This document shows, in pieces, positions 2,793 to 52,355 of a stretch of 64,000 nucleotides of DNA; within the stretch, counting starts at the first letter, position 1; each line of letters opens with the position of its first letter. Position numbers and translations under genes: made by a program. This DNA comes from a bacterium (GTDB lineage Bacteria; Verrucomicrobiota; Kiritimatiellia; CAIKKV01; CAITUY01): positions 9,191-73,190 of the forward strand of contig JBAXDB010000001.1 of the NCBI GenBank assembly GCA_037141135.1, read 5' to 3'. The notes below the pieces were generated by a model. It was not told the origin of the DNA, made no database searches, and saw only the letters and a list, made by a program, of their open reading frames with translations.

Positions 2793-3089
2793 ATGCACAT
2801 TTGTGGCGTGCAAAAGGCCAAAAAGCGGAAGCCCTGGTTCTTATACCTCATTGAGTGTGAGGATAAGAGCATTTACACTGGCATCGCTGTGGATGTCACA
2901 GCACGTTATGCTGCTCACCAAAAGGGGACGGGCGCCCGTTACATGCGCGCTCATCCTCCGCGAAAGCTGCTGGCGGTGGTCGAATATACCAGTCGTTCCG
3001 CCGCCTCGCAGGCTGAGTATATGATCAAGCAAATGACGGCAGGGCAGAAGAGGGACTTTGCACGTAGTGCAAAGTCAGTGGGCAGTTGA
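2793..3089 (+). CDS. GIY-YIG domain nuclease family protein (UPF0213/YhbQ-like)
   Basis: WFLYLIECEDKSIYTGIAVDVTARYAAHQKG is a GIY-YIG signature. It is a 98 aa protein whose stop codon lies inside the heptamer repeat array. Confidence 0.75.
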   Translation: MHICGVQKAKKRKPWFLYLIECEDKSIYTGIAVDVTARYAAHQKGTGARYMRAHPPRKLLAVVEYTSRSAASQAEYMIKQMTAGQKRDFARSAKSVGS

Positions 3090-3181
3090 CAGTAGGCAGT
3101 TAGCAGTATGCAGTTGCCCATTCTTAGTTCTGGTATTTAATTTTTGCCTACTGCCCACTGCCTACTGCTTACTGTCAACTG
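3076..3181. repeat. inverted arrays of tandem heptamers (CAGTNNN x6, 29-nt AT-rich loop, NNNACTG x5), probably a bidirectional terminator between convergent genes
   Basis: Direct reading gives cagtggg cagttga cagtagg cagttag cagtatg cagttgc, then a loop, then cctactg cccactg cctactg cttactg tcaactg. The two arms are reverse complements of each other. The stop codons of both flanking CDSs fall inside the arms. Confidence 0.7.
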
Positions 3182-4037
3182 GCATAATCTGAGCCACCAT
3201 CTCAATATTCAGGTTCTGGCGCTGGCCGGATCGATCTACACCGATCAGAAAGCGGGAATAAAACTCCTGGTTCTGGCCACCCCCACCGATGGTGAAGGGG
3301 ACCCCATCACTAACGACCACTTCCGTGCTGAGCGTTTCAAAACGGGTGCGATAGGGTGAATTATCCACAAGGCCGCTCAGTTCAGGTGTGAGTTTGACCC
3401 GAATCATCGGTCCATCACCGATGACAGTAGGTTCTATGACCAGATAGGAGCCTACTCGCTGCCATTTCACCTGTTGTTCGATAATCCGGTGATGGAAGCC
3501 GTATTCCATGATCCAGTCGATATAAGGAACGTCCTCACCAATGGAAAGCGAGGCTTGTTTTCCGCTGATGACCATCAGCTGTTGCCGGGTATTTGAGCTG
3601 GTGGAGCTGTGTTGGTCGATCACAGATGGGGTGATGTGAATAGTGGATCGCATGCCGCCTTGTCCGGAATGTATGATGCGTCCGCTCCCTGCCACAGAGG
3701 CTCCCGATCGATCGCTATCGCCGGTTCCCTTGAAGGTAACCGTGACGCTAACATTTTTCTGCGGGACATTTAGTTGTTTAACCATCATGGCGATCGTGGC
3801 GTGTTGGTTGCTGGAGGCGAGTACCAGAAGTTGGCGGGTACTCCGGTCATAGACGACATGGATATCATTTCCCAGCATCCCTTTGATCATTTCAATGGAA
3901 CTCGGACCATCGGCAAATCCGAGGGGGTAAGCCTTGAATTCCGGAGTGGTTGTGATGATGTTGGTGGTTGCCCAAGTTGGTATGATCAGCCCCATTAATA
4001 AGATGATACAAAGACCCAGCAGTAATTGTGTTTTCAC
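3162..4037 (-). CDS. secreted mini-secretin-like protein (secretin N-domain plus short secretin-type C-domain), orphan
   Basis: It has an N-terminal signal peptide (MKTQLLLGLCIILLMGLIIPTWA). The region LVLASSNQHATIAMMVKQLNVP resembles secretin N domains. The C-terminal TEVVVSDGVPFTIGGGGQ resembles the conserved secretin core. At 291 aa it is far shorter than GspD or PilQ. Confidence 0.45.
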   Translation of the reverse strand: MKTQLLLGLCIILLMGLIIPTWATTNIITTTPEFKAYPLGFADGPSSIEMIKGMLGNDIHVVYDRSTRQLLVLASSNQHATIAMMVKQLNVPQKNVSVTVTFKGTGDSDRSGASVAGSGRIIHSGQGGMRSTIHITPSVIDQHSSTSSNTRQQLMVISGKQASLSIGEDVPYIDWIMEYGFHHRIIEQQVKWQRVGSYLVIEPTVIGDGPMIRVKLTPELSGLVDNSPYRTRFETLSTEVVVSDGVPFTIGGGGQNQEFYSRFLIGVDRSGQRQNLNIEMVAQIMPVDSKQ

Positions 4038-25313: not shown

Positions 25314-25771
25314 TGATTGGACGAATACTGGGTGTTGACTACGGGACAAAGCGGGTGGGGATTGCGATCAGTGATCCCATGGCCATGCTGGCGACCCCGC
25401 TATGCGTGGAGACGATACGCTCGGTCGACGAAGCGATAACCGCAGTGTGCCGGATTGCCCGTGACCGGGGTGCGGTCAAGATTGTTGTTGGGATTCCCAT
25501 AAATATGGATGGCTCCAGTGGTGCCATGGCCTTGGAGGCCGGGAAATTTGTCGAGTTGTTGCGGACGGCCAGTGGCTTGCCGGTGGACATTACCGATGAG
25601 CGTTTAAGCACCAGTTTGGTGGAGCGCATGCTGTTGCAGGCGGATGTATCCCGTGAACGGCGCAAGGAGGTTCGCGACAAACTGGCCGCCCAGGTTATTT
25701 TGCAGGGCTATCTGGACGCCAAGGAGTATAGTAGTAGGCAGTCGGCAGTAGACAGTGAACTTTCGACTTAA
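25313..25771 (+). CDS. ruvX: YqgF/RuvX Holliday-junction-resolvase-like putative pre-16S rRNA nuclease, with a heptamer-repeat-encoded C-terminal tail
   Basis: ILGVDYGTKRVGIAISD is the YqgF signature. The last ~12 codons are encoded by CAGT heptamer repeats. Confidence 0.8.
   Translation: MIGRILGVDYGTKRVGIAISDPMAMLATPLCVETIRSVDEAITAVCRIARDRGAVKIVVGIPINMDGSSGAMALEAGKFVELLRTASGLPVDITDERLSTSLVERMLLQADVSRERRKEVRDKLAAQVILQGYLDAKEYSSRQSAVDSELST
25725..25760. repeat. tandem CAGTNNN heptamers (about 3-5 units) at the 3' end of ruvX
   Basis: aggcagt cggcagt agacagt, preceded by degenerate agt-ending units. Confidence 0.6.
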
Positions 25772-35680: not shown

Positions 35681-35706
35681 CAATTATGAAGTATGAAGGA
35701 TGAAGC

Positions 35707-36318
35707 ATGAAAGGGGCAGGTCAGAGGAGGGCGTTGTTAATTGTGGTATCGGCACCGTCAGGGGCTGGTAAGACAACGTTGTGTAACCGGCTGCTTGCCG
35801 AGCATGCCTGTATGACACGTTCCATCTCCTGTACGACCCGTGCCCCGCGCGGGGCGGAGGTGGATGGGCAGCACTATCATTTTTTGACACTTGCCGAATT
35901 CAACCGTCGTCTTGCAGAAGGATTGTTCCTGGAGCATGCTGTTGTGCATGGCAATCAGTACGGAACGCTGCGCAGCAACGTGGAGTCAGCGCTTAAGGCG
36001 GGTAAGGATGTACTCCTGGTGATTGATGTCCAGGGGGCGGCTCAAGTTCGCCGGGCGGCCCAAGCCCTGGGGGGGACCCTGGGCCGCGCCTATGTCGATA
36101 TATTTATCGCGCCACCCTCGTTGGAGACCCTGCGTGAGCGGCTTCAAAAACGGGGTGAGGATACCTCGGAAGTGATTGAGCGCCGATTGATCAATGCCCG
36201 GGGTGAAATGGAGCGGGGGCGTGAATACCAATACCGTGTGGTGAACGACAATTTGGAGCAGGCATATGCCGAACTGAATTCCATCATCAACGCGGAACAT
36301 GAACGGACATCATGTTAA
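35707..36318 (+). CDS. gmk: guanylate kinase
   Basis: The P-loop SAPSGAGKTT and the GMP-binding SCTTRAPRGAEVDGQHYHF are present. Confidence 0.9.
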   Translation: MKGAGQRRALLIVVSAPSGAGKTTLCNRLLAEHACMTRSISCTTRAPRGAEVDGQHYHFLTLAEFNRRLAEGLFLEHAVVHGNQYGTLRSNVESALKAGKDVLLVIDVQGAAQVRRAAQALGGTLGRAYVDIFIAPPSLETLRERLQKRGEDTSEVIERRLINARGEMERGREYQYRVVNDNLEQAYAELNSIINAEHERTSC

Positions 36319-37115: not shown

Positions 37116-37468
37116 CTGCTCAGCGATACAAAATTCAGGATTCAAAATTCAGTATTCAGAATTCAGACGTGAAGACCATCGTGCGTAAGGTGCAGTGGCA
37201 GATCAAGTTCCTCAAGCCTTTTGCGTCTGAGCGTGTCATGATTTTCGTGAACGAGCCTGTGCTGGCCGCCTATGGGAGCAGTACTTATATCTATGTTTCC
37301 GAGGAGGCGGATAATCAGTATCAGCCTGCGTTAAATTACGTGCAGGCACAGTTGGCCAAGTATCAGGCTGATGATAATCTGAAATTGGTAGGCCGATATT
37401 GGAAATTGCTCCAGTATTTTGAACATCATCGTGCAAATTGGGTAAAAGACAGGGAGTCCGACTCATGA
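37112..37468 (+). CDS. hypothetical protein (118 aa); N-terminus encoded by NNATTCA heptamer repeats
   Basis: The ORF is translationally coupled to tatD (ATGA overlap) and has no recognisable domain. Confidence 0.4.
   Translation: MTAQRYKIQDSKFSIQNSDVKTIVRKVQWQIKFLKPFASERVMIFVNEPVLAAYGSSTYIYVSEEADNQYQPALNYVQAQLAKYQADDNLKLVGRYWKLLQYFEHHRANWVKDRESDS
37131..37167. repeat. tandem heptamers NNATTCA x5 (aaattca ggattca aaattca gtattca gaattca)
   Basis: The 7-nt periodicity is read directly. The array is related to the CAG-centred heptamer family seen elsewhere in the window. Confidence 0.7.
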
Positions 37469-37648
37469 AAACGACTAATCTGGAAGTGCTAAGGGAAGTA
37501 AGGAATGAAGGCAAAAGTCATTGCGGTGTAGAACATGTACGGGGAAATGGTTATCTGGTTCTGAATTCCCGCCAAAAAATGACCACCCCGGCTACTCTTG
37601 CGAGAGAGCCCCATGGGCTCTTGTTACCGGGGTGGGACCTTTTCTAAT
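37466..37648 (+). CDS. possible small ORF (60 aa, MKTTNLEVLREVRNEGKSHCGVEH...), doubtful
   Basis: It is an ATG ORF in the same frame as the ORF-track 37438..37647 entry. It has no similarity I recognise, and its 3' end is occupied by a terminator hairpin. Confidence 0.2.
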
Positions 37649-37650
37649 TA
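37575..37650 (+). terminator. Rho-independent terminator candidate (nested GC-rich hairpin followed by a TTTTCT tract) ending the prfB-yicC-gmk-tatD transcript
   Basis: CCACCCCGG ... CCGGGGTGG is a 9-bp outer stem around an inner GAGAGCCC/GGGCTCTT stem, followed by GACCTTTTCT. Confidence 0.55.
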
Positions 37651-37727
37651 ATATGTCATAGGAATAACCCGGGGGTGGAACCGTGTCAAAACAAATTGGG
37701 CCAAATAACGTATTGAATATGAACATG

Positions 37728-38918
37728 ATGAAAATCATCTGCGCGACAAATATGCCGTTTGCGATGGAAGCTTTCAGCACCCTGGGGGACACCCGCATTC
37801 TGGAAGGCCGTCATATCAAGCCGGAGGATGTGCGGGAGACGGAGATTCTGGCGCTGCGATCCACTACAAAGGTTAATCGCGAACTACTTGAGGGGAGCAA
37901 GGTCCGGTTTGTTGGCACTGCGACGATCGGGACGGACCACCTCGATATCGCCTATTTTGATAAGGCGGGCATCAAATGGTGTTATGCGCCGGGGTGTAAT
38001 GCCAATAGCGTTTCTGAATATGTAACCGCCGCCTTGCTGTATCTGGCCTGCAAGCATGGGTTCACACTGCGCGGGAAAACCATAGGCGTCATCGGGGTTG
38101 GCAATGTGGGGCGACTTGTGGTGCAGAAGGCACGGGCATTGGGGATGCGGGTTTTGCTGAATGATCCGCCGAGGGAGAGAGCGGAAGCCAGTGGGCAGTG
38201 GGCAGTGAGCAGTGGGCAAAATGGTGAGGAGGCACCCCACTTTGTCAGCTTGGATCAGGTGTTGGCGGAGGCGGATATCATTACGGTGCATGTGCCGCTG
38301 ACCAAAGAAGGGCCGGATAAGACGATTCATCTGGCTGATGCGGCATTTTTCAAGCGGGCAAAAAAGGGGCTTATTTTCCTGAATGCAGCGCGGGGCCCGG
38401 TGGTGGATTCGTCTGCCTTGATCCACGCCTTGGATGAAGGACAGGTCAGCCATGTTATTCTGGACACATGGGAAGGGGAGCCCAATTACCGCCTGAATGT
38501 ATTGGCGCATGTTGATATTGCAACCCCCCATATTGCGGGACATTCCTTTGAAGGCAAGGTGATGGGGACGGTCATAGTTTACCGCGAAGTCTGCAAGTTC
38601 CTGGGGGTTCCGGCGACATGGTCTCATGAGTCCCTGATGCCGCCCCCCTTGGTGCCTGAAGTCAGGGTGGACGTTGCCGGGCGCGACGACCAGTCGGTTT
38701 TACGTGAGGTGGTACGGCAGGTTTATGACCTTGAAGGTGATGATCGCCGGTTCCGGGAATCCGCTGTGCTCGATGAAAAAACAAGAATGAAGAATTTCGA
38801 CCATTTACGCAGCAATTACCCTGAACGGCGGGAGTTTCAGTACACCAAGGTGAAACTGAATGGTGGGAGTAATGATTTGCGTTGTGCATTTACTGGCCTT
38901 GGCTTTAAAGTGATCTGA
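37728..38918 (+). CDS. pdxB: erythronate-4-phosphate dehydrogenase (PdxB; D-2-hydroxyacid dehydrogenase fold plus PdxB C-terminal domain) carrying an in-frame heptamer-repeat insertion
   Basis: MKIICATNMPF aligns to the E. coli PdxB N-terminus. GVIGVGNVGRLV is the NAD Rossmann motif. The start is chosen at the ATG at 37728; the ORF track extends to a GTG at 37683. Confidence 0.75.
   Translation: MKIICATNMPFAMEAFSTLGDTRILEGRHIKPEDVRETEILALRSTTKVNRELLEGSKVRFVGTATIGTDHLDIAYFDKAGIKWCYAPGCNANSVSEYVTAALLYLACKHGFTLRGKTIGVIGVGNVGRLVVQKARALGMRVLLNDPPRERAEASGQWAVSSGQNGEEAPHFVSLDQVLAEADIITVHVPLTKEGPDKTIHLADAAFFKRAKKGLIFLNAARGPVVDSSALIHALDEGQVSHVILDTWEGEPNYRLNVLAHVDIATPHIAGHSFEGKVMGTVIVYREVCKFLGVPATWSHESLMPPPLVPEVRVDVAGRDDQSVLREVVRQVYDLEGDDRRFRESAVLDEKTRMKNFDHLRSNYPERREFQYTKVKLNGGSNDLRCAFTGLGFKVI
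38189..38220. repeat. tandem CAGTGGG-type heptamers x4.5 inside the pdxB CDS (encodes ASGQWAVSSGQNG)
   Basis: cagtggg cagtggg cagtgag cagtggg caaa. Confidence 0.7.
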
Positions 38919-52221: not shown

Positions 52222-52350
52222 CAGTATTCAGAATTCAGGTCGAAACTTTTCCCTCGCCCCTTGAGGGAGAGGGTTAGGGTGAGGGGTTTCCATAGTCAGA
52301 ATCCAGAATGTCCACCATTCGGAATCCTGACTACTGATGACTGAATCCTG
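52222..52350. repeat. composite intergenic repeat between convergent genes: CAG-heptamers (gcagtat tcagaat tcaggtc), a REP-like unit (52251..52287), then inverted heptamers (actactg atgactg aatcctg)
   Basis: Direct reading. The architecture mirrors the 3076..3181 element, with a REP unit inserted in the loop. Confidence 0.6.
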
Positions 52351-52355
52351 ATTTC

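What the first reader, a model, noticed from the sequence alone, without database searches (positions are those of the whole stretch)
3076..3181. Bidirectional terminator built from inverted arrays of tandem CAGTNNN heptamers that also encode both genes' C-terminal residues
Six CAGTNNN units, an AT-rich 29-nt loop, then five NNNACTG units form a long imperfect hairpin. The GIY-YIG stop TGA lies inside the first array (cagt TGA cagt), and the last six codons plus the stop of the convergent secretin-like gene lie inside the second. The same heptamers recur at other convergent junctions and inside CDSs, which suggests an actively spreading microsatellite-like element rather than a simple terminator.
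Basis: seen in the sequence. Interest (0 to 1): 0.55.

Follow-up and report, generated by a model that had tools for sequence, protein, structure and literature searches.

The report
Convergent CAGT heptamer microsatellite hairpin
Two facing arrays of a 7-base repeat (CAGT plus three variable bases) sit between two convergent genes; they are a bacterial heptanucleotide microsatellite that gains and loses whole units between strains, and nothing shows they are a dedicated transcription terminator.

Summary
Window 3076-3117 carries six CAGTNNN units. A 29-nt AT-rich spacer follows, then 3147-3181 carries five NNNACTG units. Both genes' stop codons lie inside the arrays.

It is a heptanucleotide simple-sequence repeat of the known STRR / long-SSR kind, in a Kiritimatiellia/Verrucomicrobiota-like genome. 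Five results support this:
- Period 7 is over-represented in the window.
- Relatives at 74% identity have no array here, and relatives at 76-91% have only a 2-3-unit seed.
- Six otherwise identical contigs split 3:3 between five and four units in the second arm, by an exact 7-nt indel. This is the signature of slippage.
- The array-encoded residues are non-conserved protein tails.
- There is no U-tract and no Rfam match, and the simple terminator scan finds no more sites than in shuffled sequence in the 40 kb scanned. A canonical terminator is therefore not supported. A role for the hairpin at transcript 3' ends cannot be tested here.

Two features are not explained by slippage alone. CAGT is invariant in 11 of 11 units while NNN varies. 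Across metagenomic and viral contigs, paired CAGT arrays are oriented CAGT...ACTG 105 times and the reverse once, around AT-rich spacers. Xanthomonas GGGAATC repeats show the same 'convergent pair' habit.

Verdict: a new variant of a known kind, of moderate interest.

The parts
3076..3117 (+). Arm 1: six CAGTNNN units, in the sense orientation of the GIY-YIG gene. It contains that gene's last 3-4 codons and its stop.
3118..3146 (.). 29-nt AT-rich, T-skewed spacer. TTTTTGCCT at 3141-3149 straddles the end of the spacer and the first three bases of arm 2, and resembles the TTTTGCCTTT/AAAGGCAAAA spacer motif of CAGT hairpins in IMG/VR contigs.
3147..3181 (-). Arm 2: five CAGTNNN units read on the - strand, in the sense orientation of the secretin-like gene. 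It contains that gene's last 5-6 codons and its stop.
3150..3156 (.). Polymorphic unit (ACTGCCC or an equivalent register). It is present in 3 contigs and absent in 3 otherwise identical contigs. It lies in the intergenic part of arm 2.
2793..3089 (+). Small GIY-YIG domain protein (98 aa). Stop TGA at 3087-3089 lies in unit 2. The tail after ...KRDFAR is not conserved in orthologues.
3162..4037 (-). Short secretin-domain protein (291 aa). Stop TAG at 3162-3164. The C-terminal tail varies among homologues.
3054..3076 (.). Perfect 10-bp stem with a 3-nt loop (GACTTTGCAC gta GTGCAAAGTC) inside the end of the GIY-YIG CDS, abutting arm 1.
25732..25759 (+). Four units (TAGTAGG CAGTCGG CAGTAGA CAGTGAA) encoding the tail of RuvX, beyond its Pfam domain.
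38189..38216 (+). Four stop-free CAGTGGG/CAGTGAG units, in frame, inside a loop of PdxB.
37136..37170 (+). CAGGATT CAAAATT CAGTATT CAGAATT CAGACGT array, starting 21 nt after the TatD stop.
52222..52354 (.). Second convergent junction. It has sense CAG-core units after each gene (52222-52242 on +, 52324-52354 on -) flanking a G-rich stem region, in the same polarity as the finding.

Best explanation
The locus is a pair of convergently oriented, degenerate heptanucleotide simple-sequence-repeat arrays. This is the class described as cyanobacterial STRRs, as long SSRs with 7-nt units, and as Xanthomonas GGGAATC repeats.

Shown:
- The arrays grew in this lineage from a 2-unit CAGT seed at the end of the secretin-like gene.
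- They still change by whole 7-nt units between otherwise identical strains. This is what replication slippage (slipped-strand mispairing) produces.
- They persist here because they touch only non-conserved protein tails, and because units of the form CAG-TAG, CAGT-TGA and CAG-TAA stop any reading frame within three units.

Inferred:
- Because the two arrays face each other, each transcript, and single-stranded DNA, can fold into a long imperfect hairpin that can pair in several registers.
- That hairpin may act as a 3'-end structure, blocking 3' exonucleases, serving as an RNase III substrate, or damping read-through into the convergent gene. It is not a canonical intrinsic terminator, and this gene pair does not need it.
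For: Repeat class:
- A 4-mer recurring three times at period 7 occurs 30 times in the window, against 0-11 for other periods.
- Tandem Repeats Finder finds the arrays without being given the core.

Growth in this lineage:
- The 74%-identical relative L014 has the same secretin|GIY-YIG|Mfd synteny, a plain 25-nt spacer and no heptamers.
- The 76% relative L013 has 2 units (GSGQ*). The 90-91% relatives L001/L012 have 2-3 units.

Slippage:
- Alignment A4 shows an exact 7-nt indel, 5 vs 4 units in 3 vs 3 contigs, with every other aligned base identical.
- Both alleles keep the hairpin: -50.0 vs -46.8 kcal/mol.

Tolerance:
- The array-encoded residues lie beyond the conserved GIY-YIG core.
- They lie in a variable secretin tail.
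- They lie beyond the RuvX domain.
- The in-CDS pdxB array is stop-free and sits in a loop that varies by 0-30 aa across homologues, with heptamer-type peptides.

Precedent:
- Heptamers are the most abundant long SSR class in many bacteria, and polymerase slippage has been proposed (PMC4679880, PMC4692102, both citing Mrazek 2007).
- Xanthomonas has heterogeneous (GGGANTN)n arrays, 70-75 convergent pairs per genome, placement next to ORF ends, and length variation between close species (PMC4692102).
- STRR hairpins occur between hupS and hupL (PMC2670836).
- TAACTGA repeats overlap stop codons and protein termini (PMC4679880).
Against: - Plain slippage followed by random decay does not predict that CAGT is intact at 44 of 44 core positions while 12 of 33 NNN positions depart from the majority.
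- It does not predict the 105:1 polarity of paired CAGT arrays in other contigs, nor their shared AT-rich spacers. These point to some extra constraint or machinery.
- The four other arrays checked in the window showed no length variation in 1-4 further contigs.
- No expression data exist, so the RNA-level role is inference only.
Confidence: 0.65

Rival explanations
1. It is a selected, factor-independent bidirectional terminator or transcript-end stabiliser. The long hairpin made by the two arrays stops or protects both convergent mRNAs, and the heptamer repeats are just how the stem is built.
For: - The hairpin is stable on both strands.
- It sits exactly at two gene ends.
- The second convergent junction has the same layout.
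- In other contigs, pairs abut ORF ends within about 3-15 nt.
- 15% of pairs elsewhere are followed by a T-rich tail, against 5% in the background.
- The polarity (purine/G-rich 5' arm, pyrimidine-rich 3' arm) matches the known bias of terminator stems. This last point is from my own recollection of d'Aubenton Carafa 1990 and was not checked.
- STRR hairpins have been proposed to raise transcript stability (PMC2670836).
Against: - No U-tract follows either arm here.
- A 37-bp stem with a 29-nt loop is not terminator geometry.
- Terminator-like sites are no more frequent than in shuffles in the 40 kb scanned.
- Close relatives with the same gene pair have no hairpin.
- Among 106 pairs there is no bias for the sense transcript to fold better.
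- 85% of pairs elsewhere lack a T-rich tail.
Confidence: 0.2
2. It is a copy of a sequence-specific element class recognised by a dedicated protein, such as a nuclease, transposase or nucleic-acid-binding protein specific for CAGT at 7-nt spacing. In that case it is a small mobile or protein-bound hairpin element, in the manner of REPINs or of the cyanobacterial small dispersed repeats embedded in heptamer arrays.
For: - The CAGT core is invariant while NNN is free.
- Polarity is 24:0 in metagenome contigs and 81:1 in viral contigs, whereas control cores GCAT and CGTA form almost no pairs.
- CAGT arrays are mostly degenerate (about 19% perfect), against 68% perfect for GCAT.
- The spacer motif AAAGGCAAAA occurs in 41 of 106 pairs, and the window spacer ends in TTTTTGCCT.
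- A Mu-like phage contig (L247) carries 13 such hairpins in 11 kb, with repeated spacer subtypes.
Against: - Within the window the spacer is unique, and there is only this one CAGT pair.
- The array can be traced to a local 2-unit seed in relatives. That fits in-place growth rather than insertion.
- I saw no target-site duplication.
- No candidate protein was identified.
- The resemblance of the window spacer to the motif is short (8-9 nt) and was found post hoc.
Confidence: 0.12
3. It is a contingency (phase-variation) locus. Unit gain or loss shifts the reading frame and switches the C-termini or the expression of the flanking genes.
For: - The period is not a multiple of 3.
- The arrays overlap both stop codons.
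- Unit number is polymorphic.
- Heptanucleotide phase variation is known in Haemophilus hmw1A (PMC8262952).
Against: - The polymorphic unit lies beyond the stop codon and changes neither protein.
- Only 3-6 non-conserved tail residues could ever be affected.
- The units are imperfect, which lowers slippage rates.
- The associated genes are housekeeping-like (ruvX, pdxB, tatD).
Confidence: 0.03

Closest known systems
Xanthomonas GGGAATC / (GGGANTN)n heptamer repeats (Rehm et al. 2015, PMC4692102)
   Same: - 7-nt units with some fixed and some free positions.
- Mostly intergenic and close to the end of the upstream ORF.
- More common at convergent than at divergent junctions.
[quoted passage not shown]
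- Length and sequence differ between close relatives.
- Function unknown.
   Different: - The core here is CAGT, not GGGA.
- Most units cannot form G-quadruplexes.
- The phylum is different (Kiritimatiellia/Verrucomicrobiota-like).
- Both stop codons lie inside the arrays here.
Cyanobacterial STRR heptanucleotide repeats (Mazel et al. 1990; as described in PMC2670836 and PMC4692102)
   Same: - Tandem 7-bp repeats.
- They form hairpins in intergenic regions (hupS-hupL).
- Function is unknown; transcript stability or translational coupling has been proposed.
- From memory, STRR1 (CCCCAGT) and STRR3 (CAACAGT) contain CAGT. Both unit types turned up in my metagenome scan (L040, L021).
   Different: - STRRs are defined in heterocystous cyanobacteria and are usually near-perfect repeats of fixed units.
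- Here the three non-core bases differ from unit to unit, and the host is not a cyanobacterium.
TAACTGA direct repeats of Beggiatoaceae, Cyanobacteria and Bacteroidetes (MacGregor 2015, PMC4679880)
   Same: - The heptamer contains ACTG (reverse complement TCAGTTA).
- Repeats overlap stop codons or sit at protein termini.
- They have a patchy distribution across phyla.
- One orientation gives stops in all three frames.
   Different: - TAACTGA sets are short, near-perfect and mostly just upstream of start codons in 'forward' orientation. Only one inverted set was found in 170.
- Here the arrays are at 3' ends, degenerate and paired.
REP / REPIN elements (Bertels & Rainey 2011, PMC3116915)
   Same: - Extragenic inverted doublets that form hairpins, often at gene ends.
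- Dispersed in many copies in genomes that have them.
   Different: - REPINs are doublets of a conserved sequence of about 20-25 nt, tied to a RAYT transposase.
- Here the arms are tandem 7-mers, the spacer is unique in the window, and no RAYT was looked for or seen.
Intrinsic (Rho-independent) bidirectional terminators
   Same: - A hairpin centred between two convergent genes.
- The 5' arm is purine-rich and the 3' arm pyrimidine-rich on both strands.
   Different: - There is no U-tract.
- The stem is about 37 bp with mismatches and the loop about 29 nt.
- The hairpin is absent in close relatives with the same genes.

Membership tests
Heptanucleotide long SSR / STRR-type repeat | Head-to-tail copies of a 7-nt unit, three or more | tested here: met
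   Six and five units.
Heptanucleotide long SSR / STRR-type repeat | More and longer arrays than chance gives in the same genome | tested here: met
   10 matches against 0.00 expected. 7 matches against 0.01 expected. Period 7 stands out among periods 4-15. Only 64 kb could be surveyed.
Heptanucleotide long SSR / STRR-type repeat | Copy number varies by whole units between strains | tested here: met
   Exact 7-nt indel, 5 vs 4 units, in 3 vs 3 otherwise identical contigs.
Heptanucleotide long SSR / STRR-type repeat | Placed mainly outside conserved coding sequence | tested here: met
   The arrays lie at gene ends, in tails, or in a variable loop.
Cyanobacterial STRR (strict sense) | Occurs in heterocystous cyanobacteria with the STRR1-3 unit sequences | tested here: not met
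   The nearest genomes are Verrucomicrobiota/Kiritimatiellia MAGs. The units are CAGT plus variable NNN.
Intrinsic terminator | Short GC-rich stem, 3-8-nt loop, then a U-tract | tested here: not met
   No site was called at 3050-3200. The stem is 37 bp, the loop 29 nt, and there is no T-run after either arm.
Intrinsic terminator | Transcript 3' ends map to the hairpin base | not testable with these tools
   No RNA data were available.
REPIN / REP | Many near-identical copies of a 20-25-nt palindromic unit in the genome | tested here: not met
   The spacer has no second copy within 3 mismatches in the window. The arms are generic heptamers.
REPIN / REP | Associated RAYT (Y1 transposase) gene | not tested
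   Only 17 window ORFs were scanned against Pfam. None was a transposase.
Phase-variable contingency locus | Unit change switches the frame or expression of a gene | tested here: not met
   The observed indel is downstream of the stop and leaves both proteins unchanged.
MITE | Terminal inverted repeats with a target-site duplication and multiple copies | tested here: inconclusive
   Inspection of the flanks shows no duplication, and there is one copy in 64 kb. The rest of the genome was not available.
Known RNA family (Rfam) | Match at the gathering score | tested here: not met
   0 matches in the whole window.

The most novel reading that the evidence does not exclude
CAGT-core heptamer hairpins may be a widespread, so far unnamed class of element. 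Its layout is (CAGTRRT)n, then an AT-rich strand-skewed spacer, then (AYYACTG)n. It appears in many environmental bacteria and in Mu-like phage contigs. The invariant tetranucleotide and the near-absolute CAGT...ACTG polarity (105:1) would then reflect a dedicated sequence-specific machinery or a directional generating mechanism, not generic polymerase slippage. The window locus would be one member caught while still changing unit number.
Probability: 0.25. Interest if true: 0.7.

Novelty: new variant of a known kind. Interest (0 to 1): 0.45.

Why it matters
Heptanucleotide repeats have been known in bacteria since 1990 and are the commonest long microsatellite class, yet their origin and function remain open. 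This locus gives a clean natural example:
- a traceable history (no array, then a 2-unit seed, then 5+6 units);
- a live one-unit polymorphism;
- both stop codons inside the repeat.

The wider scan adds three rules: an invariant CAGT with three free bases, a strict convergent polarity, and an AT-rich spacer. Any explanation must account for these, and they can be tested on complete genomes. Practically, such arrays break short-read assemblies and shift predicted gene ends in metagenome-assembled genomes.

Tried and rejected
- Rfam over the whole window: no match. tRNA/tmRNA search: none.
- Consensus terminator scans over 1-20 kb and 44-64 kb: no site at the locus and no excess over shuffles.
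- Second copy of the spacer in the window: none.
- Recent inverted duplication as the origin of arm 2: unlikely. Outside the CAGT cores, the arms agree at only about 7 of 12 variable positions in the best register.
- G-quadruplex reading: only the pdxB array has repeated GGG tracts. The finding's arrays have one GGG each.
The loci were still useful for comparing polarity and degeneracy.
- Sense vs antisense RNA stability across 106 pairs: no bias.
- Orientation of single arrays relative to neighbouring ORFs in mixed metagenome contigs: no clear rule, and the ORF calls were rough.
- Taxonomy of the array-dense phage-like contigs: not resolved. Protein search and cluster look-up gave no organism names. 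The phage database gave only distant Mu-like transposases at about 26% identity.
- Papers by Mrazek 2007, Vioque 1997 and Elhai 2008 were not held. What I say about them comes from secondary citations or from memory.
- Literature search for heptanucleotide repeats in Verrucomicrobia/Kiritimatiellia, and for the literal repeat strings: nothing relevant.
- Exact look-up of the pantothenate kinase next to ruvX: not on record. Polymorphism of the 25.7 kb array is therefore untested.

Full report
WHAT IS THERE

Window 3076-3117 reads CAGTGGG CAGTTGA CAGTAGG CAGTTAG CAGTATG CAGTTGC. A 29-nt spacer follows (3118-3146, 72% A+T). Then 3147-3181 reads CCTACTG CCCACTG CCTACTG CTTACTG TCAACTG, which is five CAGTNNN units on the minus strand.

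Tandem Repeats Finder reports both arrays without being told the core. The inverted-repeat search gives 37-nt arms that are 78-84% complementary. The region folds into one long imperfect hairpin:
- as RNA, + strand: -56.9 kcal/mol, z = -5.3;
- as RNA, - strand: -53.4 kcal/mol, z = -4.0;
- as DNA: -28.1 kcal/mol, z = -5.4.

The pattern CAGTNNNx3 matches 10 times in the window against 0.00 expected. CAGNNNNx4 matches 7 times against 0.01 expected.

The plus-strand ORF 2793-3089 is a 98-aa GIY-YIG domain protein ending ...SVGS*, with its TGA at 3087-3089 in unit 2. The minus-strand ORF 3162-4037 is a 291-aa secretin-domain protein ending ...PVDSKQ*, with its TAG at 3162-3164.

THE WINDOW HAS MORE OF THEM

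A 4-mer recurring three times at period 7 occurs 30 times in the window. Every other period from 4 to 15 gives 0-11, and the non-multiples of 3 give 0-10. The arrays are listed below.

| Position | Units | Context |
|---|---|---|
| 3076-3117 and 3147-3181 | CAGTNNN x6 and x5 | the finding |
| 25732-25759 | TAGTAGG CAGTCGG CAGTAGA CAGTGAA | tail of RuvX, beyond its Pfam domain |
| 35686-35712 | ATGAAGN x4 | at the gmk start |
| 37136-37170 | CAGGATT CAAAATT CAGTATT CAGAATT CAGACGT | 21 nt after the TatD stop |
| 38189-38216 | CAGTGGG/CAGTGAG x4 | in frame, inside PdxB |
| 52222-52242 (+) and 52324-52354 (-) | CAG-core units | convergent junction, flanking a G-rich stem |

Every CAG-core array of three or more units is in the sense orientation of the gene it follows or enters (7 of 7). 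The arrays at gene ends contain stop codons. The one inside a CDS has none.

WHOSE GENOME

The secretin-like protein's nearest genomic relatives are Verrucomicrobiota and Kiritimatiellia MAGs. Simple terminator-like sites are no more frequent than in shuffles in the 40 kb scanned: 19 vs 20.6 and 25 vs 22.6. Rfam and tRNA searches find nothing.

HISTORY OF THE JUNCTION

The secretin|GIY-YIG|Mfd gene order is conserved in relatives. The junction itself changes with distance.

| Locus | Secretin identity | Junction |
|---|---|---|
| L014 | 74% | plain 25-nt spacer, no heptamer |
| L013 | 76% | gene ends ...GGCAGTGGTCAGTAG (GSGQ*), two units, no hairpin |
| L001, L012 | 90-91% | GTAGGCAGTG(C/G)GCAGTAA, 2-3 units |
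| Window lineage | 100% | five plus six units and the spacer |

The array-encoded residues are the non-conserved tails of both proteins. The structure is therefore a recent, lineage-specific expansion of a local seed. It is not an ancestral functional site of this gene pair.

IT IS STILL CHANGING

Looking up contigs that encode exactly the same GIY-YIG protein gave five more contigs from different samples. In the alignment, the window and two contigs (ERZ27300176, ERZ27299992) have five units in arm 2. Three contigs (JGI 3300021602, ERZ27300037, ERZ27300181) have four. The difference is an exact 7-nt deletion (ACTGCCC, window 3150-3156 or an equivalent register). All 184 other aligned bases are identical.

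The indel lies past the secretin stop codon, so neither protein changes. Both alleles keep the hairpin: -50.0 vs -46.8 kcal/mol. A whole-unit indel flanked by direct repeats in otherwise identical DNA is the classic product of slipped-strand mispairing.

The four other arrays checked in the window (35.7, 37.1, 38.2 and 52.2 kb) were invariant in the 1-4 further contigs I could find.

A RECURRENT HOT SPOT IN pdxB

In an alignment of 34 PdxB homologues down to 60% identity, the segment between NDPPRERAE and FVSLD varies from 0 to about 30 residues. Its peptides are three-frame readings of heptamer DNA: SGQWAVSSGQ, KSGQWGVGSGQ, SRIQDPESRIE, SGVRNTESGVRNTESGVRNTESG.

DNA of two relatives confirms this. 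L008 carries CGGAATC CAGAATC CAGGATC CAGAATC CAGAATT at that spot. L010 carries a remnant, GGGCAGA AGGCAGT GGGCAGG. Heptamer arrays are therefore a trait of the whole clade. The same tolerant site is occupied again and again by different unit types.

WHAT IS KNOWN

- Heptanucleotide units are the most abundant long-SSR class in many bacteria. A 7-nt footprint of the replicative polymerase has been proposed to favour slippage (Mrazek 2007, as summarised in PMC4679880 and PMC4692102).
- Xanthomonas carries about 186 heterogeneous (GGGANTN)n arrays per genome. [quoted passage not shown] Most are intergenic, on average 28 nt from the upstream ORF. They are twice as common between convergent as between divergent genes. 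They vary in length between close species. Their function is unknown (PMC4692102).
- Cyanobacterial STRRs are 7-bp repeats that form hairpins, for example between hupS and hupL. Proposed roles are transcript stability or translational coupling (PMC2670836).
- TAACTGA repeats (reverse complement TCAGTTA) in Beggiatoaceae, Cyanobacteria and Bacteroidetes overlap stop codons and protein termini. They give stops in all three frames in one orientation (PMC4679880).

The window locus fits this kind in every respect I could test.

WHAT SIMPLE SLIPPAGE DOES NOT EXPLAIN

First, across the 11 units of the finding, CAGT is intact at 44 of 44 positions, while 12 of 33 NNN positions depart from the majority.

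Second, I scanned for CAGTNNNx5. The scan hit its 120-locus limit both in the metagenome collection (GC 0.28-0.69) and in IMG/VR. In those loci:
- Only about 19% of CAGT arrays are perfect repeats, against 68% for a GCAT control core.
- Arrays of three or more units lying within 150 nt of each other in opposite orientation are ordered CAGT...ACTG 24:0 in metagenomes and 81:1 in viral contigs.
- Control cores GCAT and CGTA give 0:1 each. GACT gives 2:7, and these look like the same objects read one base over.
- The pairs abut predicted ORF ends within about 3-15 nt. They occur at convergent, tandem and a few divergent junctions.
- Their spacers are AT-rich (GC 0.41 against 0.60 for the loci) and strand-skewed.
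- 41 of 106 spacers contain AAAGGCAAAA/TTTTGCCTTT-like motifs. TTTTTGCCT ends the window's inter-array gap (3141-3149, its last three bases being the first bases of arm 2).
- Long ORFs often stop inside the arrays, mostly as CAG-TAA/TGA/TAG: 119 in sense against 77 in antisense. The secretin gene here stops the same way (...SKQ*).
- One IMG/VR contig, L247, is a Mu-like phage region with a distant BcepMu-type transposase. It has 13 such hairpins in 11 kb, about one after each gene.

I could not tell whether this polarity reflects selection or a directional generating mechanism. It matches the purine-rich 5' arm and pyrimidine-rich 3' arm bias I recall for terminator stems, but I did not check that. 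There is no bias for the sense RNA to fold better. Only 15% of pairs have a T-rich tail.

MECHANISM, WITH ITS STATUS

Shown:
- It is a heptanucleotide SSR.
- It expanded from a local seed in this lineage.
- It changes by whole units between strains.
- It affects only dispensable protein tails, and its units supply the stop codons.

Inferred:
- The two facing arrays fold into a register-shifting hairpin in each convergent transcript. The hairpin may protect 3' ends, be cut by RNase III, or damp read-through.
- It is not a canonical intrinsic terminator, and relatives do without it.

Unexplained: the invariant CAGT and the strict polarity. These keep open a dedicated recognition or generating machinery. 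I put that reading at about 0.25 as the novel case. Its more specific form, a small mobile or protein-bound hairpin element, is rival 2 at 0.12.

VERDICT

This is a real feature and a member of a known kind of bacterial repeat. It is in a new lineage, with a new core and an unusually clear evolutionary record. The terminator reading is not supported. The microsatellite reading is supported. Interest is moderate.

Noticed in passing
window 38150-38240; alignment A2; L008 10459-10485; L010 10453-10471: The PdxB loop between NDPPRERAE and FVSLD is a recurrent site for heptamer arrays across homologues down to 60% identity. It carries different unit types (CAGTGGG, CAGAATC and others) and varies by 0-30 aa, always in frame.
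   Followed up: partly
window 37116-37733: A segment of about 570 nt lies between tatD and pdxB and is absent from the syntenic relative L011, which has a 37-nt gap there. It holds two ORFs without a Pfam match on record (118 aa and 60 aa), and its 5' edge is the CAGGATT/CAGAATT array. It could be an insertion whose border is marked by the repeat.
   Followed up: partly
window 35686-35712: Four units, ATGAAGT ATGAAGG ATGAAGC ATGAAAG, sit at the gmk start, so four ATGs occur 7 nt apart in rotating frames. The relative L011 has a single GTGAATGAAAAG here. The array therefore looks like an expansion of the start-codon heptamer, again with one free position per unit.
   Followed up: partly
window 52246-52300: Between the two CAG-core arrays of the second convergent junction lies CCCTCGCCCCTTGAGGGAGAGGGTTAGGGTGAGGGG. 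This is a C-rich/G-rich stem followed by four GGG tracts (TGAGGG-like, period 6), which could form a G-quadruplex.
   Followed up: no
L247 1-11465 (IMG/VR); also L173, L181, L201, L212: These are Mu-like phage-type contigs (GC about 0.6). Nearly every gene in them is followed by a CAGT-heptamer hairpin with the spacer AAAGGCAAAA or a few other repeated spacers. Many ORFs end ...ISNQ*, ...SSKQ* or ...ISDQ*, encoded by the arrays. The host is unknown.
   Followed up: partly
L007 1381-1405; L557 end: Short-read contigs from other samples end inside the heptamer arrays or junctions. Such repeats therefore break assemblies and may be under-represented in MAGs.
   Followed up: no
window 3054-3076: A perfect 10-bp stem with a 3-nt loop lies inside the last codons of the GIY-YIG gene, directly abutting arm 1. 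It is identical in all six contigs.
   Followed up: no
window 1-64000: GC skew is positive in all but one of the 2-kb windows (12-14 kb is slightly negative), and cumulative skew otherwise rises throughout. This holds even across the first 16 kb, where most genes are on the minus strand. The window thus appears to lie within one replichore.
   Followed up: no
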